Shown: in pieces, positions 1,789 to 58,762 of the stretch | How positions within the stretch are numbered: position 1 is the first letter of the stretch | How the letters are laid out: the number at the start of each line of letters is the position of its first letter | Virus record (IMG/VR): IMGVR_UViG_3300045988_147517 | Location: 32,001 to 96,000 of that record | Source of the DNA: a virus | Direction: 5' to 3' (one strand) | Length of the DNA: 64,000 nt | Program-made: the position numbers and the translations under genes | The notes under the pieces: model-generated | The model's input: the letters and a program-made list of their open reading frames with translations, nothing else | The model's database searches: none | Told to the model about the DNA's origin: nothing

Positions 1789-2139
1789 CTACACTAAATG
1801 AATACAAAGTATTCCAATCTCATCATCGACACGAACAGAATCCACAATTTTGTTCAATAAGTTAGGGTTAAAAGCATAGTCTATGACATCAAAATTACAC
1901 ACGTCAAAATCATTAATGCCAAGTTCAAACCAATGGTGCCACTTACTACTTTCGCTATTATAGTCCGTCAAATAAATACGAACAAGAAGGCAATCTTGCC
2001 TACCTTCTTCTGTCTCTCTATCAGAAATATAATTCCTAAAATTATACAACATTAAGAATTCTCGGAGTGTGATTGCAAAACCACACTCCTCAAGCACAAA
2101 TTCTTTAGTATATTCCCCTGATTCAAAGTTTAATTCCAT
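1789..2139 (-). CDS. hypothetical protein
   Basis: 116-aa ORF whose start overlaps the RNR stop (TAATG). Confidence 0.5.
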   Translation of the reverse strand: MELNFESGEYTKEFVLEECGFAITLREFLMLYNFRNYISDRETEEGRQDCLLVRIYLTDYNSESSKWHHWFELGINDFDVCNFDVIDYAFNPNLLNKIVDSVRVDDEIGILCIHLV

Positions 2140-5100
2140 TAATCACACCCACTATAGCCGCAATCATCGTTAATGCAATGACCGCAACCACCTTCCGCAA
2201 CATAGGTTCTCTGTCCACATTTTGGACAAATTCCTAAATTGCTATTCTCCACTTCATTCTTTAGGTTTGTAACACCGCTAAGGAAATCTGTCAATTCTTT
2301 CATAGTGTTCTGTTCTTCACAAGTTTTACAGCGCGGCTCTGGGATATCAAAAACTCTAGAAACCGCTTCATTCACAATCTCTTCTTCACTATAATCATCA
2401 TCAATCAACTCTTCTTTGATTTGATTTGCCATCTCTTGCAATGCGATTCCCACTGCGGCAGGACAGCAATTCCCCGGCGAAACATCATGTTTAGTCGCCC
2501 TTCGCACCATATAACTAACGCAACCCGGGCAACTCTTTGCTTGGTCTACAATTCCCTCTACTGTTCCACCAAGGCGCATCGCATAAGAAATCATGCGAGA
2601 GCCAAATACCATCCAAGAATTACAGCCGCCCTCTGAGCCTTTGCTTAAAAATGTTTCGCAAAGTTCGCCATCTACTGGGTCAAAGAAAGCTGTTGTGTGT
2701 AAAGAGCCACACCCAGTAACAAGTTTGTGTTTTCTTCCCACAACATCGTCATAAACTTGAACCACATCACCTCGATTAAGTACCTGTAGAGGACGGGTTT
2801 CTTCTTTTGGCGGCTCTTCTTCTTGGTTGTTCACAAGGACACCAGCCCGGTCACAGCCATCTCTATAAACTGTAATGCCTTTAAGGCCTTGTTTCCACGC
2901 CTCATAGTATAATTCAAATACATCTTTAACTGTGGTATATTCAGGGAGATTTACTGTAGAACTAATTGATGCATCGATATGTTTTTGCCAAGCCGCCTGC
3001 ATAGCAATACGTTCTTTATACGGAATCATTGGCGCTGTTACAAACCAACTAGGTAAATCCGCTTCATTATCAATATTATTTTCCTGCATATATTCTTCTA
3101 CAATTGGAGTATATACTTTATACCAATACTCTTGACCATGAAGTGATTCTGTTTTTCTCATATAAGAATTGGCGAAAATGGGTTCCATCCCACCGGATAC
3201 ACCTAGCATTGTGCTAGTACTGCCCGTTGGGGCCACAGTCAACAGTTGCAAATTTCTCAACCCATATTTACGAATATCTTCATATAATTTGTCTGTTACA
3301 TGTGAATTTAAGAAAGGAGAATCTAGCACCGCGCCAGAAAACCTCGGGGCTGGGCCGAATTCTTTTGCTAACTCCATAGATGATTCGAGAGCGCATGAAA
3401 CGATGAATTCACCAATATTATCAGCTAATTTTAAAGACTCCTCACTTCCGTATCTTATTTTCAATTTAATCAGTAAGTCAGCCCATCCCATAACTCCTAG
3501 GCCGATTTGCCTGTAATTTCTTACACTTTCACGTTGATATTCTAGGGGGTGTAATTCCAACCCTTCATCTAAAACTTCATTCAAATAAATTACTGCATTT
3601 TTGACAGTAAATTTCAAAGAATCCCAATCAACTTTTCCATCTTTTTCAAATTGCGCCAAGTTAATTGAGCCAAGTAAACAACTACCTCCTTCTGGTAATG
3701 GTTCTTCTGCACCTTACCACACATAGTTTCCTATGCCATCTAATATAGATGTTGTAGTCTGGACTATATCATCCGTTATTTTATAAAAATAACAGGTGGG
3801 CGCTGGACAATAAATTGCCACTTAGTCTCTGAACCTTCCCCTGTTCGGGGCTTGGATGCTGATTGCCCAATCCATACATTTTTTAACATTCACGCCTAGA
3901 TTTATTTCATTCTTACGTTGTAGTATGTATGGCTCTAAGGGGTTTCCAGCAGTTCACCCACTTTTAAATCCGCATACACTTTACGGATTAACCCCACCAT
4001 ATTGAAAATCAGGGTCTTCACTTAATAAATTATAGTCATTAATTCTATCCCAGAATAATAATCCGGGTTCAGCCTGCCGCCAATTCATCTCTGCTAAACG
4101 CATAAATACATCTTGAGCATTAATTACTTTGGTAATTTCTTCTCCTGTCTCTTGACGATAATATTTTAATGTATATTCTTCATCATTGATAACAGCATTC
4201 ATAAATTCATCTGTTACTTTAATTGAGATATTTGCCTTAGTAACTTTTCCAGCCTCCGATTTTAAATCAATAAAATCTTCAAGGTCTGGATGGCTACAAT
4301 CAAGGCTAATCATCAATGCCCCCAATATGGACTATCTCTTACCACTAATCTAGTGGCTCGGGCGCTAATGTAGTCTTATTGTTATCCTCAACTACTAGTC
4401 TCTGCACGTCCTATATACCTTTTACATTATATAGTTTCGCTCAGGGTTCTTGGGTCTTCCCTGAATTCACCCAATTCAAGACGCAGGGCATTAGCTTTGT
4501 TATACTTTCTATATAATACAATAAATGAATCGTTAGGATATATATAATCTAAAAATTTTAAAACATCTTTTTTGCTAGAAAATCCTAATATAAAACAATC
4601 TTCTTTTCCTTTTGGCTTTATCTTAGATGATACTCCAACCTCATCTATTAAAACATTCTGAACACCTTCTAATAAACGGTATTGAGAAGTAAATGAAATT
4701 CTTTGCCATATCCTATTTCTGTCTTTCCTTCTTCCCCAAGTAATACACCCATCTCCATCAAAAAACCCAAGAATTAAATATCTTTTAAGGTCTTTTCTTA
4801 CAATTGGCAAATGACGGCTGTTCTTTTTTCCACCATATTTATTAATATCTGTAAGTATATTTTTATTATATATTGTATATCTTGCTCTTGGGAACCTCCT
4901 AGATTCCCTATCTAAGTATGTGGTTTCATGAACATTTCCACCAATAATTTGAGATATATAATATAGTATTTCTTTATCAGCTAATGAAACAGATAACTCA
5001 ACACACTTATCTCCAATGTATCCATCCGCTAATATAAATCCTAAGATATATGCTTTTTCTGGGGTATCAATCTTATTAAACATGTATTCATTTTTATACT

Positions 5101-29275: not shown

Positions 29276-29350
29276 TGGTGCGGGGACTGGGAATCGAACC
29301 CAGTTTTCAGGCGTATAAGACCCGCGCACTAACCGATGTACTATCCCCGT
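29276..29350 (-). tRNA. tRNA-Ile (anticodon UAU)
   Basis: Hand-folded cloverleaf: acceptor ACGGGGA/TCCCCGC, anticodon arm CGGGT-CTTATAC-GCCTG, T arm CTGGG-TTCGATT-CCCAG, and an encoded CCA. Position 1:72 is an A.C mismatch. Confidence 0.75.
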
Positions 29351-49822: not shown

Positions 49823-49850
49823 TAAAAAAAAAGGCGTTAAGCCTTTTTTC
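49823..49850. terminator. bidirectional terminator
   Basis: A-run, AAGGC-GTTAA-GCCTT, T-run. It overlaps the stop of the helicase-like gene. Confidence 0.65.
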
Positions 49851-51186
49851 GAGATTTATTAAAGTAGCGGGATTTTTGGTAGGGCACGTAGGCGATTTCT
49901 TCATCGTTGAGCCATTGAGTGAAAAGCGTTCGCATACGCAGGGATGGAATGTAGAGGTAAATTTCTTCATTATTTCTTATGGCGCTTCTCCATACCCATT
50001 GAACCATATCAGCCAGCGCGAATTTATCTTGGTCGACGGCAATATTTCTAATTGAAAAAAGTTGTTTAATAAAAGGGTTCATGTAGCGGTTTACCATGTA
50101 GGCGCAATGTGTGCGGTTTCCATATTCGTTTGTCGCTTTAGCATTGAGTGGAACAAAAGCCCTTCTACTAATGCGCGCTGGCTTCACTTGCTTATTAAAA
50201 GATTTAAAGGTGGTATACATTCGTTGTTTTGGTGGCGCGCTTCTCAGAAAATTAAAGATACATCGGCTTACATCCTCAAGTTCCTCTGGATGTGAGGCAT
50301 ACCAATTATTACTAAGCGTACTGGAGAACTCCTGATTATTATTTGCTACATAAGGTCGACCAATTTCATTAAGGCTATCACTCTGGCAAATGTGGATAAG
50401 CGGTTTTACATTTTTCTTCCATTCTCTCTCATAGTCTTGGTTAATGGTTGGAACAAAACAATATTGTCCATTTTGGCGCTCTGTGTGATAATATTCATAT
50501 GTTATATCATAGAAGCGATAATAGTATGCCTGCATTTGATGTTCAAACATGTAGGTAAGGATAAAAACGTCATTAAAAATATCCTCTTCGAAAACCTGTA
50601 CGGGGAACGACCAAAATAAGGCACTATCATTAATATAGTAGAGCAGTCCATTATCGGCCAAATGTTTCATGTGTTGGTAGCGTGATAAATCAGCCCATTC
50701 TTCTTTTGACCAATTCACTTGAAAATCTGGGTCGATAGATACATATCCTTTGCGAATAAAAGATGCCATATCCTTTATTGTATGAAGTTGCCTTTCTCTT
50801 TCGGTGAAGTTGGATTCGGAATACTTACATAAGTCATATTCATTAATAACGTTTATGACCTCGTCTAGAAATAAGATATAATTCCCACCTCTTAAGATAT
50901 CGAGCAACTCTTTGTCTACATAAGAAAAGAGCGCATGTGTACAGACGATATTTTCTCCTTTTGCAAGTAGCGCTTTTAGGTGCCTTCCCTTGGTTCCAAA
51001 TTCTTCCTCAGATGGTTGAACAAAATTCTTTGATTCACATTCTTTTATAACCCTATCACATTCGGTTAGGAATGGTGTTACAAACATAATATTGGTATCA
51101 TTCCCTAACATATTAATATGATGAATGGCGGCACTTGTTTTGCCGCTACCCATCGGAGAGTCAACAACTTTAATTCTTCTTTTCAT
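49837..51186 (-). CDS. P-loop NTPase, helicase-like (DEAD/DEAH-type N-domain)
   Basis: Walker A SPMGSGKTS and Walker B-like ILFLDEV, with AAGGAG RBS. Confidence 0.55.
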   Translation of the reverse strand: MKRRIKVVDSPMGSGKTSAAIHHINMLGNDTNIMFVTPFLTECDRVIKECESKNFVQPSEEEFGTKGRHLKALLAKGENIVCTHALFSYVDKELLDILRGGNYILFLDEVINVINEYDLCKYSESNFTERERQLHTIKDMASFIRKGYVSIDPDFQVNWSKEEWADLSRYQHMKHLADNGLLYYINDSALFWSFPVQVFEEDIFNDVFILTYMFEHQMQAYYYRFYDITYEYYHTERQNGQYCFVPTINQDYEREWKKNVKPLIHICQSDSLNEIGRPYVANNNQEFSSTLSNNWYASHPEELEDVSRCIFNFLRSAPPKQRMYTTFKSFNKQVKPARISRRAFVPLNAKATNEYGNRTHCAYMVNRYMNPFIKQLFSIRNIAVDQDKFALADMVQWVWRSAIRNNEEIYLYIPSLRMRTLFTQWLNDEEIAYVPYQKSRYFNKSRKKA

Positions 51187-51271: not shown

Positions 51272-51300
51272 TTGACATTTAATTAAATCTGTGCTATAAT
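51272..51300 (+). promoter_or_regulatory. consensus promoter of the plus-strand module (divergent)
   Basis: TTGACA (51272-51277), 17 nt, TATAAT (51295-51300). Confidence 0.7.
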
Positions 51301-51333
51301 AGAGCCAGAGCAAAATAATACAGGAGGATGTTA

Positions 51334-51507
51334 ATGAAATGTGATAATTGTTATTGGAATATATATTGCTCGCAGGCAGAAATGGATTTAAATATTAATG
51401 GTAATTACTGTTATCATTTTGATGATATAGATAGCGGCGGTGAATATGTTCCGACTAGGGATGATTTTTATGACGAGTTTTACAAATACGTAGAGGAATA
51501 TAACTAA
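51334..51507 (+). CDS. small Cys-rich protein
   Basis: Hand-translated 57 aa, MKCDNCYWNIYCSQAEMD..., behind CAGGAGG. It is below the ORF-track cutoff. Confidence 0.5.
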   Translation: MKCDNCYWNIYCSQAEMDLNINGNYCYHFDDIDSGGEYVPTRDDFYDEFYKYVEEYN

Positions 51508-51675
51508 ATGGATAATGAATCTTATAACTTAGACGAATTGTTAGAAGAAATTGCAGATGATGCAAACAAGCTATTTGATGAATGTTGTGATGAATGGGAC
51601 AAGGCGTCAATGCGTAGAAAGATTATTGACATTATATGGAAAGTGTATGATGGCGAATTTAAGGAGCTAGACTAG
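51508..51675 (+). CDS. small acidic protein
   Basis: Hand-translated 55 aa, MDNESYNLDELLEEIADD.... Its start abuts the previous stop. Confidence 0.45.
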   Translation: MDNESYNLDELLEEIADDANKLFDECCDEWDKASMRRKIIDIIWKVYDGEFKELD

Positions 51676-51691
51676 AAATGAGAGGTTAAAA

Positions 51692-51928
51692 ATGTTTTTT
51701 GGTATTGGAAGTTTACCCTTTTGGCTATGCGGCCTACCTATTTTAGTTGGATTGTTTTTTATAGCATGTGCTAACCCAGAAAAATATATTTATCCACATG
51801 TTATAAAACACGAAGAGAGAAAGCGCAATTCATCGCCTTCACCTTATAATTCGGGAGAGGGAATTATGATTGTATGTGTTTTAGCTTGTGCTTTTATTTT
51901 AATCTATATATTGAAGTTATGGTGGTAG
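51692..51928 (+). CDS. small membrane protein
   Basis: 78 aa with two transmembrane segments and GAGAGG RBS. Confidence 0.5.
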   Translation: MFFGIGSLPFWLCGLPILVGLFFIACANPEKYIYPHVIKHEERKRNSSPSPYNSGEGIMIVCVLACAFILIYILKLWW

Positions 51929-51929
51929 A

Positions 51930-54900
51930 ATGAAGAATCGACAATTTTATATAGTAAAACTAAATAGTTCTGATTTAAAGTATTTCAAATATACTTTAGA
52001 GGGGGATTTTGATATTTTTAAAAAGCGCGACCAGATAGCCGCGGTGGCAGATAGTCAGACATTAAGGTTGATTAGAGAACTTACAAATAAAGATGTAGAC
52101 TTGGAAGAGATTGAGAAGTTATACAAAAAAAGAGATTGGCTCAAAAAACAGGAGAGCACACAGGCCGCTTCAAATGAAATTGCTTTTTTGCAACGTAAGA
52201 TTAATAACGCTATGTTTATTCCAGAATATGTCACAGTCACCATGAGTGGAAATAAACAATATGAGTATTTGTTCGAAAAAGGATTTGAGCTTATTATAGA
52301 TGGTAGGCGCATTCATTATAAGCGATTGTCATGTTCGGCAGGGCAGGCTCGTGTTTCTACTGTTGTATTCTGTGATAGTAATATTATTGATGAATTGGAG
52401 CGTCGATTAAACAACGGACGTGATATGAACTTTAAGATAGCGCCATCTAAATTCAATGCATACTTTGGATTATATACTTCCGCAACTAAAGTAGTTAGCG
52501 AGCCTAACTTTTGTGTTGTGCCAGACTATGAAAATAATTTGGATGTAGAGGTAAATTATGTAACTGAAACGGATTATGATTCGGACGATTTAATTGATAC
52601 GCGAACCGTCAACTTAGGGTTTAACCGAACTGATGGGATGGGGCTAATAAATTATGAACGCGCCTCTAAATGGGCAGAAGAGTTAGGGCTAGATTATGTT
52701 CCGGCCCAATTTTGCATACGACAATCATTTATTAAGGGAATGTTGTGCACCTTTCCCATTCAAGAGTTTTGTGAGCTTGTTAATTATGGTAATTATATCA
52801 CAAAAGATATTTATGGCGCTGAAATAGATTTGAGGGACTATGATGTTATTTTAACGGAGAGCCAATTTAAATTGTGGGGTGCTTATCCAAATCTTGATTA
52901 TTACAAAGAATGTTGCCATAAAAATAATCTTAAATGGGGTGTAGCTATTTATACCCCTAAGCATGATAAAGATATTATCAAGATGAACTATCAATTTCTA
53001 CAAACATTAGATTTATCAGACGAAGATATTGAAAATTTATGCTCAATGTTTGTTAATTGGATTCAGGGTGTAACTTGTGACAACTTAGGATACACGCTCC
53101 TCTATTTAATTGGAGAGGGTAAAACTGAAGAAGAAGTTCGGGCCTACATGCGTAGCCCGGATAACTATTGGATTAAATCTTTAATTATGGAGCCGGAGTT
53201 AATTAAAGATAGGTATATCAAACAGAAGATATATCGCCTAATTAAAAAGCGCATTCAAGACGGTTGCCTAGGAGAGATTATTTTAAATGGCAACTTTCAG
53301 GTACTCGTAAGCGACCCATTTGGATTTATGCAACATGTATGCGGGTTAGAGCCAACTGGGTTACTTGGCGCTGATGAGTATTACTCTAACTATTGGAATG
53401 AGCGGGATGTAAAAGTGGTGGATGGTATGCGTTCCCCCTTGACATATCGCTCCGAACATGTTAAAATGAAGTTAGTGAGAAACAGCCGTATAGATTATTG
53501 GTATCGTTATATGTATACGGGCGTTGTTCTTAATTACCATGGACACGATGTAATGTGTTTTGGTGGCGCGGATTTTGATTATGATATTTTAGCCACTACT
53601 GATTGTCCAGAGGTGGTTAATGGTATATATCCAAATGAGTTACCTGTCTATTATGAGCCACCCAAACCAGCGAAGATAGTGCCTACAAAAGAGGATTTGT
53701 TTAAATCAGACACATTCAGTTTTGGTTCTATCATTGGTAGCATTACAAATAAAGGTTCTAGCGGATATGCATTACTTTCCGACATTGAATATATGTATGG
53801 GAAGAATAGTATAGAGTATGTTACTACGCTAAATAGATTAAAAATGTCTTGCAAGTTACAGAGCGCGCAAATTGATTAATGTTGGTCACTTCATAGGGAA
53901 ACCTATGTCGAAACGTGGTGAACACTCAGAGAGTGGGTATACATATATTGTATGCTATCGGGGAAAGCTAAAGCCATAAGGTATGCCAATCCCGAGCCGA
54001 ACACCTATTGGAGGTGGAGGTGTAACGACTATCCGCAAGGAGTAGCGCCATAGCGATATGGTGGCGAAGTGCCACGCCCCTAACGTAAAGCCGAGGGTGA
54101 AGATATAGTCTAGTCCCCTAACAAATATCGGGAAACCGAGGGTATGAACGAAAGCGAAAATAGGAAGAGAAGTAAAAGGAATTCCTAAAATATGGGTCAA
54201 ACGCCAGAAAATAGAAGATGACGACGATGAACAAACGATTAAATATAAGGAGCGGATGAATTATTTATGTCTAGACAGGCATCCTTATTTTTTTATATAT
54301 CGTTATGCTGATACCAGAAAGAAATATCGCAAGCACATTGACACTTATCAACATTGGTGCAAGACTTCATTTAGATTGTCTCTAGAGGAATTATTTAAGG
54401 TAGAAAATAAGACACAGCAACAAAAGGATTTTTTAGCTGGATATTTCCGTTATATGCCTGTTATTGATAGCAATAGTACGATGAATCGTATTTGCCATTA
54501 TATTGAAGGGTTGAATATGAATGTACGTAGCCACCTTAAAGTAAAAGAAGGGCACGACATGCATAAATTATTTATGCCTGATAATATTGAATGGAATGAA
54601 GAGCGCTACAATAATGTGGTAGAAGCCTATAAGCGTTATTGCAAGGAGTGCACAAAAATGAATTCTCTTGGCGCTTCTAATTTTGATTTTGAGACAACGA
54701 AGGATTATGATTTTTACGCTTCTATGTTTATAGGAATGTTGTATTCCTATGTCAATGAGGTATGCAGTAATGTGTACGAAGCCATTACATATTTGGCGCA
54801 TTATATGTATGTGGAAAAAGATAGCGCCAATAAGGAAATGCTATGGCAAACATATGGGTATGAAATATATAGTATGATTAAGGAAAGAAATAGCGGTTAC

Positions 54901-54984
54901 ATTATGTTTCCACTAGAAGATGAAGATGGTGATATAGAGTATTTAAATAAAAGGTATTCTATGCAGGAGGTTTGTATTGATTGA
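51930..54984 (+). CDS. RdRP-like / YonO-like single-subunit RNA polymerase, two exons (51930-53877 and 54197-54984)
   Basis: SCSAGQARVSTVVF, KFNAYFGLYTSATK, FNRTDGMGLI..PAQFCIRQSFIKGM, MRSPLTYRSEH and FGGADFDYDIL follow the order and spacing of the cellular-RdRP/YonO motifs (SSSQLR, ARxGQxFSxT, DGxG..QIRxxGxKG, RxP, GGDxDGD). Exon lengths 1948+788 nt are in frame. Confidence 0.55.
53878..54196 (+). mobile_element. group I intron (ORF-less, about 319 nt) in the RNA polymerase gene
   Basis: The segment looks GC-richer than its flanks. P1 is formed by exon TGATT pairing with internal guide GGTCA 6 nt downstream, with U.G at the splice site. Core elements AACGACTATCC and GAAGATATAGTCTAG are present. 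The intron ends in G. The junction could shift by 1 nt. Confidence 0.75.
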
Positions 54985-55795
54985 TAAATTTACATATAAA
55001 GAGACAGATTATGTGAACGCTTTATTACAAAATGGTTTTATGACACAATATGAGAACTATGAGATGTCTTTGTTGTGTAAATTTTGGAAAGAGACTGGCG
55101 TGACAAAAAAAGAGGCGCGCCAGAATCTTATTTATTTTTGTGAATTATATTCAGATAGTTATGATGAAATGCTATATCATGCACGCTTAGATAGAATTGT
55201 CAATGGAGTATATCGAAAAGAGAATAAGCTAATTCAAATAGATTATGTTCCTATATATAAACATGAATTTGAATACATTCAAAGTTGTGACCTTCCTCAT
55301 CCTTATCAAAGATTGCTCTTTGCTTTCTTGGTATTAAAGAAAATCCATTCTGAAATATGGGTTATAAATGGCGGGGAGCGTAAGCTAAGTGGCCTGATTA
55401 ATGGTGATAAAAAACAATTTAAAATAGTTAGCGAGATGGCGCATTTAAAAGGTGGAAAAAAGGAAGATATCTTTTATATGATATACGATTTGGCTCAACA
55501 GGGAATGGTTACATCATTGGCGCTTGCTCAGGTTTATTTGAATTTTATAGACGAATTAAAAGAAAACGAATCAGAGGAGATTGTTCGCGTGTCAGATTTT
55601 GAGCATGTTTGGATGTATTATGATTATTTGAGTGGGTATAATCGGGCTGGAAGGGTCGTAATTTGTCAAGAATGTAATAGCCCCTATCACGCAAAGAGTA
55701 ACCGACAAAAGTATTGTAATGAATGTGCCGTTGAAAAACAGAGAGAAAGAGATTTGGAATACAGAAGAAGGGTTAGAAGTTCTAGTGAATACTAG
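54977..55795 (+). CDS. hypothetical protein with a C-terminal zinc ribbon
   Basis: TTG start 6 nt after AGGAGG. Contains CQECNSPYH..YCNECA. Confidence 0.5.
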   Translation: MIDKFTYKETDYVNALLQNGFMTQYENYEMSLLCKFWKETGVTKKEARQNLIYFCELYSDSYDEMLYHARLDRIVNGVYRKENKLIQIDYVPIYKHEFEYIQSCDLPHPYQRLLFAFLVLKKIHSEIWVINGGERKLSGLINGDKKQFKIVSEMAHLKGGKKEDIFYMIYDLAQQGMVTSLALAQVYLNFIDELKENESEEIVRVSDFEHVWMYYDYLSGYNRAGRVVICQECNSPYHAKSNRQKYCNECAVEKQRERDLEYRRRVRSSSEY

Positions 55796-55934: not shown

Positions 55935-55963
55935 TTGACATCAGTGTTAAGACATGCTATAAT
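55935..55963 (+). promoter_or_regulatory. consensus promoter upstream of the tRNA cluster
   Basis: TTGACA (55935-55940), 17 nt, TATAAT (55958-55963). Confidence 0.7.
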
Positions 55964-56131: not shown

Positions 56132-56207
56132 TGGGGTATAGCCAAGTCGGTAAGGCACCAGACTTTGACTCTGGGATGCGTAGGTTCGAGTCCTTCTGCC
56201 CCAGCCA
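56132..56207 (+). tRNA. tRNA-Gln (anticodon UUG)
   Basis: Acceptor TGGGGTA/TGCCCCA, anticodon arm CCAGA-CTTTGAC-TCTGG, T loop TTCGAGT, encoded CCA. Confidence 0.85.
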
Positions 56208-56381: not shown

Positions 56382-56455
56382 GCCACTATAGCATAACGGT
56401 AGTGCGAATGATTTGTAATCATTTTATCGGGGTTCGACTCCTCGTAGTGGCTCCA
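56382..56455 (+). tRNA. tRNA-Thr (anticodon UGU)
   Basis: Acceptor GCCACTA/TAGTGGC, anticodon arm AATGA-TTTGTAA-TCATT, T arm CGGGG-TTCGACT-CCTCG, encoded CCA. Confidence 0.85.
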
Positions 56456-56655: not shown

Positions 56656-58191
56656 ATGTTTATTGAAAATTTACGAAATACTTTAAATGATGAAAAACAA
56701 CTGACAGAGAATGGCGCTTTAGGGTATAAGACCAGCGGGCATAAGCTTGTTGATTTAAACTTTAGAGCTTCTACACTTCGGTATGAAGAAGATGAAAAAA
56801 TCAAAAGTGCGTTTCTAGACGCTTTTGCACAAGAGCCAGAAATGGCAGTTAAGTGGTTATTCTTTGCGAGAGATATTCGTGAGGGTATGGGAGAACGTAG
56901 AGTGTTTAGAGTTATCATTCAACACCTGTGTAATTCTTATCCCGACCAAATGTGTGAAATTTTGGAATACATTCCAGAGTATGGGAGATGGGACGATTTA
57001 ATTTATATCATTAAGAGAAGAGTTCCTGATAAAATTTTCAACAAGGTAGTTGGTATCATTGTAAATCAATTACGTGAAGATATGGAAAATGCATTAAATG
57101 GCAAAAACATTTCGCTTCTTGCTAAATGGATGCCAAGTGAAAAGTCCCATAATAAAGAAGCGCGCAATGTAGCCTACAAGGCTATGAGTTTTCTTGGATT
57201 AACTCCTAGGAATTATCGTAAGATGATTTCTGGATTAAGGAAAACTCTTGATGTGGTAGAGCGTAAAATGAGTGCAAATGAATGGTCGTTTATTAATTAT
57301 TCATCCGTTCCTTCAAATGCGAATTTGAAATACAGGAATGCATTCAATAGACATGACCATGAAAGATATAATGACTTCTTAACGAAAGTATTGACAAAAG
57401 AAGCTAAAATGAATTCTTCAACATTGTATCCTCATGAAATTGTTAAAAAATATAGAAGTGACGATATGTGGGAGGTTAGTTATTTCCCCGAATTTGAACC
57501 TGATTTAGAGGCATTGTGGAAATCCTTACCACGAGACAACTCTCTTAAGGATACAATTGTTGTTAGTGATGGCAGTGGCAGTATGTATACTACTGCGTAT
57601 GGCGTTCAACCAATTGATGTTGCACAAGCACTTGCTATTTATTTTTCAGAAACCTGTCAGGGAGAATTTAAGGATAAATATATCACGTTCAGCCAAACAC
57701 CACAGTTAGTAGATTTTGGTAAGGCAGAGAATTTATTAGATAAGTTAAAAATTATTGATAAATATAACGAGGTTGCTAATACAGATATCGAAGCTGTGTT
57801 TGACTTAATCCTAAAAGTCGCTACAGATGCTCATATGGCGCAGGAGGAAATTCCTAAGAATATCCTAATCATTAGCGATATGGAGTTTGATAGCGCTACA
57901 TCTGCTCCGTTTTTTAGTGATGAACCATCAAGAGTGAATAAAACGTTATTTGATAGTATCTCTGAAAAATATCATAATGCTGGATATGAAATGCCAAAAT
58001 TAATTTTCTGGAATGTGTTATCGAGAACCAATACCATTCCATTAAAGGAAAATGATTTGGGGGTGGCGCTATTAAGCGGATATTCTCCGGTTATTGCAGA
58101 TATGATTATGTCGGGTAGGTTAGACCCATATAGCATTTTAATTGAAAAATTAAATAGCGAAAGATATAAAGATATTAAATTTAAATTATAA
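56656..58191 (+). CDS. TROVE/DUF2828-like protein with a C-terminal vWA domain
   Basis: The N-terminus LTENGALGYKTSGHKLVDLNF..WLFFARDIREGMGER is TROVE/DUF2828-like by recall. VVSDGSGSMY is a MIDAS DxSxS motif. Confidence 0.5.
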   Translation: MFIENLRNTLNDEKQLTENGALGYKTSGHKLVDLNFRASTLRYEEDEKIKSAFLDAFAQEPEMAVKWLFFARDIREGMGERRVFRVIIQHLCNSYPDQMCEILEYIPEYGRWDDLIYIIKRRVPDKIFNKVVGIIVNQLREDMENALNGKNISLLAKWMPSEKSHNKEARNVAYKAMSFLGLTPRNYRKMISGLRKTLDVVERKMSANEWSFINYSSVPSNANLKYRNAFNRHDHERYNDFLTKVLTKEAKMNSSTLYPHEIVKKYRSDDMWEVSYFPEFEPDLEALWKSLPRDNSLKDTIVVSDGSGSMYTTAYGVQPIDVAQALAIYFSETCQGEFKDKYITFSQTPQLVDFGKAENLLDKLKIIDKYNEVANTDIEAVFDLILKVATDAHMAQEEIPKNILIISDMEFDSATSAPFFSDEPSRVNKTLFDSISEKYHNAGYEMPKLIFWNVLSRTNTIPLKENDLGVALLSGYSPVIADMIMSGRLDPYSILIEKLNSERYKDIKFKL

Positions 58192-58212: not shown

Positions 58213-58236
58213 AGCCCGCTTGGCGGGCTTTTATTA
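58213..58236 (+). terminator. rho-independent terminator
   Basis: AGCCCGC-TTGG-CGGGCT followed by TTTTATT. Confidence 0.75.
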
Positions 58237-58275
58237 TACGAAAAATTATAGGAATTATAGAAGGAGTGTAAAGTT

Positions 58276-58557
58276 ATGACAAGAAATGAACTGTATAGGA
58301 AAGTTAGTAAGGCAACAGGAGTCAAGCAAGACGACGTAAAGGAAATAGGCAACGCTATTTTTGACTTGATTAAGACAACTGTTTGCACAGGTGAAAAAGT
58401 TTCAATTTCGAAATTTGGAACTTTTAATCCAAAGGTATATAAACCACATACATTTTTTAATCCTCTAACTCAGGAATATAGCAATATCTCGGCCCGCGCT
58501 GTTCCTAAGTTCTATCCATCACAAGACTTTAGAGAAGGTTGCAAGTCCGATGGCTAA
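58276..58557 (+). CDS. HU/IHF-family DNA-binding protein
   Basis: MTRNELYRKVSKATGV..VSISKFGTFNPKV..FNPLTQEYSNISARAVPKF follows the HU-fold pattern. Confidence 0.75.
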   Translation: MTRNELYRKVSKATGVKQDDVKEIGNAIFDLIKTTVCTGEKVSISKFGTFNPKVYKPHTFFNPLTQEYSNISARAVPKFYPSQDFREGCKSDG

Positions 58558-58762
58558 GTATGGAATCACAAAAAGTGTTGGCCTAAAGATTGTAGGTATG
58601 CTTGATATTCGAATGGAAGAAGAGCGAGTATATGTAGAAATTGAAGGGCAGACACATTCACTGGCGCTTTTATTAGAAGAATATGACGGGCAGGACGTAA
58701 CAATTACTACTGGTATGGATGTAATGCCAGAAGGATTGGTGCCAGAAGAGGATGAGGAATGA
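58550..58762 (+). CDS. hypothetical protein
   Basis: 70-aa ORF with overlapping start and stop codons on both sides. Confidence 0.5.
   Translation: MAKYGITKSVGLKIVGMLDIRMEEERVYVEIEGQTHSLALLLEEYDGQDVTITTGMDVMPEGLVPEEDEE

What the first reader, a model, noticed from the sequence alone, without database searches (positions are those of the whole stretch)
51930..54984. Phage-encoded RdRP-like (YonO-type) RNA polymerase with a DFDYD metal-site variant
The spliced 911-aa product carries, in order:
- SCSAGQARVSTVVF
- KFNAYFGLYTSATK
- FNRTDGMGLI...PAQFCIRQSFIKGM
- MRSPLTYRSEH
- FGGADFDYDIL

This mirrors the motif series of eukaryote-type RNA-dependent RNA polymerases and of the YonO/crAss-type two-barrel phage RNAPs, whose motifs are SSSQLR, ARxGQxFSxT, DGxG..QIRxxGxKG, RxP and GGDxDGD.

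The catalytic loop reads DFDYD, with Tyr in place of the canonical Gly.

Such polymerases are rare and poorly characterised. Promoters for this one are unknown. A downstream zinc-ribbon protein (54977-55795) may be a cofactor.
Basis: partly seen in the sequence, partly recalled or inferred. Interest (0 to 1): 0.7.

Follow-up and report, generated by a model that had tools for sequence, protein, structure and literature searches.

The report
Intron-split YonO-type phage RNA polymerase
This is a phage gene for a single-chain RNA polymerase of the known YonO type, split by a self-splicing intron and always followed by a small zinc-binding partner gene; the polymerase itself is an ordinary member of a large family, and the partner is the only part that might teach something new.

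Summary
The gene at 51930-54984 encodes a two-barrel, YonO-type single-chain RNA polymerase. It passes Pfam PF05183 (32.4 bits, cutoff 23.8) and matches SPbeta YonO (tblastn E=1e-22). Its AlphaFold model (pLDDT 89.5) matches RDR2 and QDE-1 (Foldseek E=1e-16 to 1e-10), then crAss gp66 (E=3e-4).

All eight residues invariant in two-barrel polymerases are present. The gene order around it is SPbeta-like.

The correction concerns splicing. The group I intron is 53877-54150 (274 nt), not about 53877-54195. The product is 926 aa, not 911.

DFDYD is real but is not peculiar to this gene. Of 120 close homologues, 118 carry Y, F, L, M or H in place of Gly. Gly dominates only in more distant relatives, and the field already writes the motif as DxDxD.

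The family is very large: 2,479 clusters at 50% identity. It occurs in Bacillota phages and prophages.

The cofactor idea gains support. The zinc-ribbon gene abuts the polymerase gene in 78 of 80 related loci. Its ribbon matches YonO's own C-terminus, and one natural polymerase-partner fusion exists.

Verdict: a new member of a known kind, of modest interest.

The parts
51272..51300 (+). Perfect sigma-A/sigma-70-type promoter (TTGACA-17-TATAAT with an extended -10 TG). It lies in the divergent intergenic region upstream of the polymerase operon.
   Evidence: 12 of 12 matches; sequence. Function is inferred.
51328..51928 (+). Three small ORFs (59, 55 and 78 aa) packed directly upstream of the polymerase gene, probably in the same transcript.
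   Evidence: no significant Pfam hits.
51930..53876 (+). Exon 1 of the YonO-type RNA polymerase, residues 1-649. It contains both barrel motifs: D235, R264, K269, R501, P503 and D548/D550/D552.
53571..53585 (+). Catalytic metal-binding loop DFDYD, a DxDxD motif aligned with DNDGD of YonO.
53877..54150 (+). Group I intron of 274 nt with no internal ORF. U53876 precedes it and G54150 is its last base. Exon AUUGAU can pair with intron GUUGGU to form P1 (read by eye, not computed).
   Evidence: Rfam RF00028: 41.4 bits, E=5.2e-9, below the gathering score of 50. Junction fixed by intronless homologues. 19 of 61 predicted pairs show compensatory changes among three introns at this site.
54151..54984 (+). 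Exon 2 of the polymerase, residues 650-926 plus the stop codon.
   Evidence: PHROG 8308 and 35857 hits.
54977..55795 (+). Partner gene of 272 aa that overlaps the polymerase stop codon by 8 nt. The protein is helical, with a possible winged helix, and ends in a C4 zinc ribbon and a basic helix.
55664..55726 (+). C4 zinc ribbon of the partner (CQEC...CNEC). Its four Cys are the only invariant columns in 30 homologues, and it is homologous to YonO residues 796-836.
49837..51186 (-). Divergently transcribed YonV-like gene (449 aa), a marker of SPbeta-type gene order.
   Evidence: PF27199 YonV_C on the identical protein in L003; PHROG 2467 E=3e-67.
58213..58229 (+). Intrinsic-terminator-like hairpin (7 bp, 6 of them G-C, followed by a T-run). 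It closes the upstream units just before the HU/YonK-like genes.
58245..58260 (+). Tandem ATTATAG-GA-ATTATAG, unique in the window, between the terminator and the HU-like gene. It is a candidate late promoter or operator; this is speculative.
   Evidence: 1 match, 0.04 expected. Conserved in L007, L008 and L009.
58276..58762 (+). HU-like gene (YonN position, 58276-58557) and a weakly YonK-like gene (58550-58762). In SPbeta the YonO-dependent late operon starts at this point.
   Evidence: PF00216 E=8.5e-22; PF09642 YonK E=0.031, below its cutoff. SPbeta late-operon start from PMC5467207.

Best explanation
The gene encodes a 926-aa single-chain, two-barrel, DNA-dependent RNA polymerase of the YonO type, in an SPbeta-like phage or prophage of Bacillota.

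The proposed sequence of events is as follows.
1. Host sigma-A RNA polymerase transcribes the operon from the consensus promoter at 51272-51300 (inferred).
2. The 274-nt group I intron splices itself out between U53876 and A54151. This restores the invariant motif QID-KAKIGREVKGIP (junction shown by homology; splicing itself inferred).
3. The polymerase binds catalytic Mg2+ with D548/D550/D552 on one barrel. D235, R264 and K269 on the other barrel complete the active site (residues shown; chemistry inferred from YonO, QDE-1 and multisubunit polymerases).
4. As for YonO in SPbeta, it then transcribes the late structural and lysis genes that begin near the HU/YonK-like genes at about 58.2 kb (inferred from homology and gene order).
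5. The translationally coupled 272-aa zinc-ribbon protein most likely acts with the polymerase, for instance in promoter or DNA binding (inferred from gene adjacency and fusions).

The Tyr in DFDYD is a clade-wide replacement of a Gly that is not essential.
For: Family membership:
- Pfam PF05183: 32.4 bits against a cutoff of 23.8.
- tblastn to SPbeta YonO: E=1e-22 over residues 122-607. Full-length 49% identity to an intronless ORF of Spbetavirus BUCT082.
- AF2 model with pLDDT 89.5 and pTM 0.84.
- Foldseek PDB: the top 21 hits are all RDR2 or QDE-1 (E=1.9e-16 to 1.3e-10, about 800-950 aligned columns, TM 0.4-0.48), followed by crAss phi14:2 gp66 at E=3.3e-4.
- All eight residues invariant in two-barrel polymerases (PMC2919709) are present, and conserved in at least 251 of 269 relatives and in YonO, the rest being almost all alignment gaps.

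Gene order:
- YonV-like gene upstream.
- HU, a weak YonK match and a weak, sub-threshold metallophosphoesterase match (PF12850, 19.7 bits against a cutoff of 27) downstream, as in BUCT082 and SPbeta.

Function of the prototype:
- YonO is a strict DNA-dependent RNA polymerase, is dead when the three Asp are mutated, and is needed for the late operon that starts upstream of yonK (PMC5467207).

Intron.

Partner protein:
- Present within -34 to +18 nt of the polymerase stop codon in nearly all of the 78 of 80 IMG/VR loci that carry it (L012, +506, is the exception), and in BUCT082; also downstream in phage c-st, at +69 nt.
- Its ribbon and basic tail match YonO residues 796-836 (hhalign 94% probability, E=9.4e-8).
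- P0132 is a natural polymerase-partner fusion (E=7.9e-31).
Against: - No biochemistry exists for this clade. It is only about 25% identical to YonO.
- The best structural matches are RNA-dependent enzymes, so template preference is not shown.
- The intron scores below Rfam's gathering threshold (41.4 against 50), and splicing was not observed.
- The late promoter is unknown.
- Here the HU-like gene sits 35-45 nt after a terminator, and the YonK match is weak (E=0.031).
- The partner's role rests only on gene adjacency, one fusion and a 41-column ribbon match. Its fold has no significant PDB match (best E=0.58).
Confidence: 0.85

Rival explanations
1. It is an RNA-dependent RNA polymerase, as the Pfam name and the best structural matches (RDR2, QDE-1) suggest. 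It would copy phage or host RNA, for example to make dsRNA or to amplify a transcript, rather than transcribe DNA.
For: The Pfam family is called RdRP. The top 21 Foldseek PDB hits are eukaryotic RdRPs. Database names for homologues read 'RNA-dependent RNA polymerase'.
Against: YonO, the only characterised phage member, strongly prefers DNA templates (PMC5467207). QDE-1 itself has DNA-dependent activity (PMC9508822 abstract). The gene sits in a dsDNA phage at the position of the late-transcription polymerase of SPbeta.
Confidence: 0.07
2. The interrupted gene is a decaying pseudogene. The two ORFs would be remnants separated by junk, and Gly-to-Tyr would mark an inactivated metal loop.
For: The ORF is broken by a stop at 53877-53879. 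The intron scores below Rfam's gathering threshold. The canonical Gly is missing.
Against: - The insert matches the full group I model (positions 1-253) at E=5e-9.
- Its removal restores an invariant motif exactly, in frame, obeying the U/G splice rules.
- 19 base pairs covary among introns at this site.
- All eight catalytic-core residues are intact.
- Y, F, L or M at this position is shared by 118 of 120 close, full-length homologues, so it is under selection.
Confidence: 0.03
3. The downstream zinc-ribbon protein has no link to the polymerase. It could be an independent DNA-binding regulator or a degenerate HNH-type protein that merely shares an operon.
For: Its only family hits are weak zinc-ribbon or HNH matches. 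It has no significant structural neighbour. Similar ribbons are common in phage proteins. Adjacency could reflect shared ancestry of the loci.
Against: - The pair is kept, usually with overlapping stop and start codons, across loci whose polymerases are only 40-50% identical and whose partners are only 23-35% identical.
- YonO, which has no partner gene detected in the 7.4-kb yonO region examined, carries the homologous ribbon and basic tail at its own C-terminus.
- None of 228 unfused full-length polymerases of this clade has such a ribbon.
- One protein fuses the two.
Confidence: 0.3

Closest known systems
YonO of Bacillus subtilis prophage SPbeta (Forrest et al. 2017, PMC5467207)
   Same: - Homologous single-chain two-barrel polymerase: E=1e-22, with the same eight core residues.
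- Same place in an SPbeta-type gene order (YonV upstream; HU/YonN and YonK downstream).
- Presumably the same job, late-gene transcription.
   Different: - Only about 25% identity.
- 926 aa against 839 aa.
- Metal loop DFDYD against DNDGD.
- The gene is split by a group I intron.
- YonO ends in a C4 zinc ribbon with a basic tail. Here that module sits on a separate 272-aa protein encoded immediately downstream.
Hypothetical protein UAW07825.1 of Bacillus phage BUCT082 and the PHROG 8308 / PF05183 prophage proteins of Bacillaceae, Paenibacillus and Lachnospiraceae
   Same: - Same clade: 49-81% identity over the full length.
- Same DxD[YFLM]D loop.
- Same partner gene downstream.
   Different: Most lack the intron. 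None has been characterised; they are annotated as hypothetical or 'RNA-dependent RNA polymerase'.
Eukaryotic cellular RdRPs QDE-1 and RDR2 (PDB 2J7N, 7W82, 7EU0)
   Same: Best structural matches. Shared motif series: SxxQxR, DGxG, QxR..KG, RxP, DxDxD.
   Different: - 11-15% identity.
- The eukaryotic enzymes act in RNA silencing, largely on RNA templates.
- They keep DxDGD.
Virion RNA polymerase gp66 of crAss-like phage phi14:2 (PDB 6VR4)
   Same: Single-chain two-barrel phage RNA polymerase of the QDE-1-like branch.
   Different: - Much weaker match (E=3e-4, TM 0.26).
- gp66 is a 2,180-aa virion-packaged early polymerase.
- No evidence of virion packaging here.
Group I introns of SPbeta-type and other Bacillota phages (for example in ribonucleotide reductase genes)
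   Same: A short, ORF-less group I intron inserted in a highly conserved coding motif. The same window has another in its RNR large-subunit gene.
   Different: The host gene is the phage RNA polymerase. No description of an intron in a YonO-type gene turned up in the papers read for other purposes; no literature search was made for this specifically.

Membership tests
Two-barrel (double-psi beta-barrel) RNA polymerase superfamily | Eight invariant residues: the Asp triad, the Rpb2-D837 equivalent, two basic residues of the second barrel, and the R-x-P motif (Ruprich-Robert & Thuriaux 2010, PMC2919709) | tested here: met
   D548, D550, D552, D235, R264, K269, R501 and P503 are present. They are invariant in A1 and A2 and conserved in at least 251 of 269 relatives and in YonO, the rest being almost all alignment gaps.
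Two-barrel (double-psi beta-barrel) RNA polymerase superfamily | Overall fold matches solved two-barrel polymerases | tested here: met
   AF2 model with pLDDT 89.5. Foldseek: RDR2 and QDE-1 at E=1e-16 to 1e-10 with TM 0.4-0.48, gp66 at E=3e-4, multisubunit beta' only at E about 0.2. The barrels themselves were not inspected residue by residue.
Pfam PF05183 (RdRP; eukaryotic cellular RdRPs and YonO-like proteins) | Score above Pfam's gathering threshold | tested here: met
   32.4 bits against 23.8, E=5.6e-8, residues 127-566.
YonO-type phage RNA polymerase | Significant sequence homology to SPbeta YonO across both barrels | tested here: met
   tblastn E=1e-22, 25.6% identity over residues 122-607; alignment A1.
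YonO-type phage RNA polymerase | Location in an SPbeta-type late-region gene order | tested here: met
   YonV_C upstream. HU (E=8.5e-22), YonK (weak, E=0.031) and a weak, sub-threshold metallophosphoesterase match (PF12850, 19.7 bits against a cutoff of 27) downstream, as in BUCT082 and SPbeta.
YonO-type phage RNA polymerase | Strict DNA-dependent RNA synthesis, and requirement for late-gene transcription | not testable with these tools
   Known only for YonO itself (PMC5467207).
Canonical DxDGD metal loop | Gly at the fourth position | tested here: not met
   The window has Tyr, and 118 of 120 close homologues lack Gly. Among 133 diverse cluster representatives, 86 have Gly. Recent papers define the motif as DxDxD (PMC7824862, PMC10770324), so this does not bar membership of the superfamily.
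Group I intron (Rfam RF00028) | Score at or above the gathering threshold | tested here: not met
   41.4 bits against 50, but E=5.2e-9 and a full-length model match over positions 1-253.
Group I intron (Rfam RF00028) | U before the 5' splice site, terminal G, in-frame restoration of the host protein, and a conserved structure | tested here: met
   U53876 and G54150. The junction restores the invariant QID-KAK. 19 of 61 predicted pairs show compensatory changes in three introns.
crAss-like virion RNA polymerase (gp66 type) | Close structural or sequence similarity, and virion packaging | tested here: not met
   Only E=3.3e-4 and TM 0.26. The size and genomic context differ. Packaging was not tested.

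The most novel reading that the evidence does not exclude
The 272-aa zinc-ribbon protein encoded immediately after the polymerase may be a dedicated subunit of YonO-type polymerases, acting as a promoter-recognition or initiation factor. YonO would carry part of it (the ribbon and basic tail) fused to its own C-terminus.

If so, these 'single-subunit' two-barrel polymerases would work as two-component holoenzymes in most of the family. The tandem ATTATAG element upstream of the HU-like gene would be a candidate for their still-unknown promoter.
Probability: 0.35. Interest if true: 0.6.

Novelty: new member of a known kind. Interest (0 to 1): 0.35.

Why it matters
YonO-type enzymes are the smallest known relatives of cellular RNA polymerases and are used to think about how transcription enzymes evolved. 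How they find promoters is an open question, stated as such in PMC5467207.

This locus adds nothing fundamental about the polymerase itself. It does point to three testable things:
- A conserved, translationally coupled partner protein whose zinc ribbon is fused to YonO in SPbeta. This makes the question of whether YonO needs a factor directly testable.
- A large clade that does without the supposedly universal Gly of the metal loop.
- Two recurrent intron insertion sites in the gene. These cause the polymerase to be mis-annotated as two or three hypothetical proteins, as in phage c-st.

Tried and rejected
- Sequence search of the PDB found nothing with the single protein. With the family profile it found only RDR2, at E=0.13. 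No YonO-type structure turned up in either the sequence or the fold searches of the PDB.
- The megablast search of phage genomes found only a 50-nt intron-core match to Staphylococcus phages. No close sequenced phage turned up.
- The first genome-contig scan with the single protein found no close relative. The host genus therefore stays unknown.
- The partner protein gave no answer. Pfam and PHROG hits were weak ribbon or HNH matches only. The PDB profile search gave nothing significant. Foldseek's best hit was E=0.58, with scattered winged-helix regulators at E=1-4 that I do not treat as evidence.
- The last two protein-database searches for the partner returned only 11 and 16 proteins.
- Rfam at the gathering threshold did not call the insertions in related loci. 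Only one of them (L076) reached E=1.6e-5 in the relaxed search. So the nature of the insertions inside DxDxD (intron or intein) is settled only for that locus.
- I looked for a shared motif upstream of the HU-like genes across the loci. Only the four closest relatives share the ATTATAG repeats, and no family-wide promoter motif emerged.
- The primase-polymerase reading named in the finding's refutation test was rejected, because no search gave any such hit.
Full report
**What is in the sequence**

On the + strand, an ORF at 51930-53879 (649 aa) is followed after 376 nt by an ORF ending at 54984. DFDYD is encoded at 53571-53585.

The first ORF passes Pfam's curated threshold for PF05183 'RdRP' (32.4 bits against 23.8, E=5.6e-8).

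**The intron and the corrected splice site**

A relaxed Rfam scan finds a full-length match to the group I intron model at 53877-54132. It scores 41.4 bits with E=5.2e-9, which is below the gathering score of 50.

The intronless 924-aa homologue in Bacillus phage BUCT082 reads QSAQID-KAKIGREVKGIPSPW across the break. Seventy intronless homologues do the same.

The only junction that restores this invariant motif in frame is U53876|A54151, with G54150 as the last intron base. This fits the group I rule of U before the 5' site and G at the 3' end. By eye, exon AUUGAU can pair with intron GUUGGU to form P1.

The intron is therefore 53877-54150 (274 nt, 48.5% G+C in a roughly 34% G+C region). The product is 926 aa, not 911.

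Three introns at this same site in diverged host genes (window, L074, L076) fold to a common structure. In that structure 19 of 61 predicted pairs show compensatory double changes.

**What the protein is**

A tblastn search of GenBank phages gave three informative results:
- 49% identity over the full length to BUCT082, a Spbetavirus.
- 25.6% identity (E=1e-22) over residues 122-607 to YonO of SPbeta.
- Hits in Clostridium phage c-st and in Enterocloster, Thomasclavelia and Psychrobacillus phages.

An AlphaFold2 model built on 71 sequences is confident (pLDDT 89.5, pTM 0.84). Its best 21 PDB matches are all RDR2 or QDE-1 (E=1.9e-16 to 1.3e-10, about 800-950 aligned columns, TM 0.4-0.48). Next comes the crAss-like phi14:2 gp66 polymerase (E=3.3e-4), and then beta' subunits at E about 0.2. 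The viral structure library gives the same picture.

Ruprich-Robert and Thuriaux (PMC2919709) list eight residues as invariant in all two-barrel polymerases. All eight are present: D235, R264, K269, R501, P503, D548, D550 and D552. They are invariant in the alignments and in YonO.

**Genomic context**

- The divergent upstream gene (49837-51186, - strand) is YonV-like.
- Downstream lie the zinc-ribbon gene and two tRNA genes.
- Next is a DUF2828/DUF7788/vWA protein.
- Then comes a strong terminator-like hairpin at 58213-58229.
- After it are an HU-family gene (E=8.5e-22), a weakly YonK-like gene (E=0.031), and a gene with a weak, sub-threshold match to a metallophosphoesterase domain (PF12850, 19.7 bits against a cutoff of 27).

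This is the order seen in BUCT082 and SPbeta. The window also carries a ribonucleotide reductase gene split by a second group I intron, another SPbeta-like trait.

A perfect sigma-A-type promoter (12 of 12 matches plus TG) lies at 51272-51300, upstream of the polymerase operon.

**How it most likely works**

YonO is a strict DNA-dependent RNA polymerase. It is inactive when its Asp triad is mutated, is essential for phage production, and is needed for a 37-gene late operon whose start site lies upstream of yonK (PMC5467207).

By homology and gene order I infer the following. Host polymerase expresses this operon early. The intron splices out. The 926-aa enzyme then transcribes the late genes that begin near 58.2 kb. 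Only the sequence features are shown here; splicing, template choice and targets are inferred.

**The DFDYD loop**

The Tyr aligns with the Gly of YonO's DNDGD. In 120 homologues at 47% identity or more, the fourth position is Y, F, L, M or H in 118 and Gly in 2. The three Asp never vary.

Among 133 cluster representatives with the motif, Gly occurs in 86, Y in 16, S in 11, F in 9, L in 4, M in 3, T in 2 and A in 2. Non-Gly residues dominate above 40% identity to the query, and Gly dominates below.

Loss of Gly is therefore a derived, selected trait of a whole clade, not a singular variant. Recent papers already write the signature as DxDxD (PMC7824862; PMC10770324), although a 2020 review still calls DxDGD universal (PMC7598289).

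**Size of the family**

The family profile finds 2,479 clusters (at 50% identity) with E≤1e-3, and 769 with E≤1e-30. Named genomes include Bacillus, Paenibacillus, Virgibacillus, Oceanobacillus, Metabacillus, Heyndrickxia and many Lachnospiraceae.

'Rare' is therefore not accurate; 'poorly characterised' is. An IMG/VR contig (L008) carries an identical polymerase with the same intron.

**The zinc-ribbon partner**

The 272-aa ORF at 54977-55795 overlaps the polymerase stop codon.

- A homologue is found downstream of the polymerase gene in 78 of 80 IMG/VR loci, in nearly all of them within -34 to +18 nt of the stop codon (L012, +506, is the exception), and in BUCT082. Phage c-st has one too, 69 nt downstream. 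The proteins are only 23-35% identical in most cases.
- Its only invariant residues are four Cys (C230, C233, C247, C250), followed by a basic helix.
- A profile of 30 partners matches the last 41 residues of YonO (796-836) with 94% probability and E=9.4e-8. The c-st annotators had noted that CST177 resembles the 'C-ter' of YonO.
- Conversely, none of 228 unfused full-length polymerases of this family ends in such a ribbon.
- The single exception, P0132 (1,173 aa), is a polymerase-partner fusion: its residues 918-1170 match the partner profile at E=7.9e-31.

These patterns support a functional link. They do not show what the partner does. Its confident model (pLDDT 90) has no significant PDB neighbour.

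**Other observations**

Interruptions of the polymerase gene recur at two sites:
- Inside DxDxD: L076-L079, L085-L086, c-st, MT835481 and CB457P1.
- At QID|KAK: the window, L008, L074 and L076.

Many database ORFs end exactly at one of these two sites.

A tandem ATTATAG repeat at 58245-58260 is unique in the window (0.04 expected). It is conserved upstream of the HU-like gene in the closest relatives.

**Verdict**

This is a correctly recognised, intron-split member of the known YonO-type polymerase family. The splice site needs correcting, and the metal-loop variant is clade-wide. The conserved partner gene is the most useful lead.

Noticed in passing
L004, L005, L006, L074, L076-L079, L085-L086; P0137, P0229-P0267, P0125, P0215, P0268: YonO-type polymerase genes are interrupted again and again at two sites: inside the catalytic DxDxD codons and at the QID|KAK motif. 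Many database ORFs stop exactly there, so the gene is often annotated as two or three hypothetical proteins (for example CST179 and CST178 of phage c-st). Only the L076 insert inside DxDxD gave a group I signal (35.8 bits, E=1.6e-5).
   Followed up: partly
P0132 (1,173 aa, from the representatives search): A natural fusion of the polymerase and the zinc-ribbon partner in one ORF. Residues 918-1170 match the partner profile at E=7.9e-31. It could be a true fusion or a lost stop codon.
   Followed up: partly
window 58245-58260 (+); L007 13259-13284: Tandem ATTATAG repeats between a terminator and the HU-like gene. They are unique in the window (0.04 expected) and conserved in the closest relatives. 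Possibly a late promoter or an operator.
   Followed up: partly
window 55935-55963, 56132-56207, 56382-56455, 56656-58191 (+): A second perfect sigma-A-type promoter precedes tRNA-Gln(UUG), tRNA-Thr(UGU) and a 511-aa DUF2828/DUF7788/vWA protein (PHROG 850, 'RNA-binding protein'). This cassette lies between the partner gene and the HU-like gene, a position where BUCT082 has nothing. BUCT082 has an untested 515-aa ORF just upstream of its polymerase instead.
   Followed up: no
window 2139-4325 (-), intron 3739-4020: The ribonucleotide reductase large-subunit gene is split by a second group I intron (Rfam 67.6 bits), as in SPbeta-type phages.
   Followed up: partly
window 54096-54151: The 3' core of the polymerase intron is 94% identical over 50 nt to unannotated stretches of six 141-kb Staphylococcus aureus phages (CIFT_MFB_MRSA series). 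This suggests a shared intron lineage across host genera.
   Followed up: no
window 29276-29350 (-): A tRNA-Ile gene with anticodon TAT, unusual in bacteria, within the minus-strand early region.
   Followed up: no
L077 12485-12638: A related phage contig carries drum RNA (88.5 bits) and DUF3800-XI RNA (62.5 bits) motifs about 2 kb downstream of its polymerase and partner genes.
   Followed up: no
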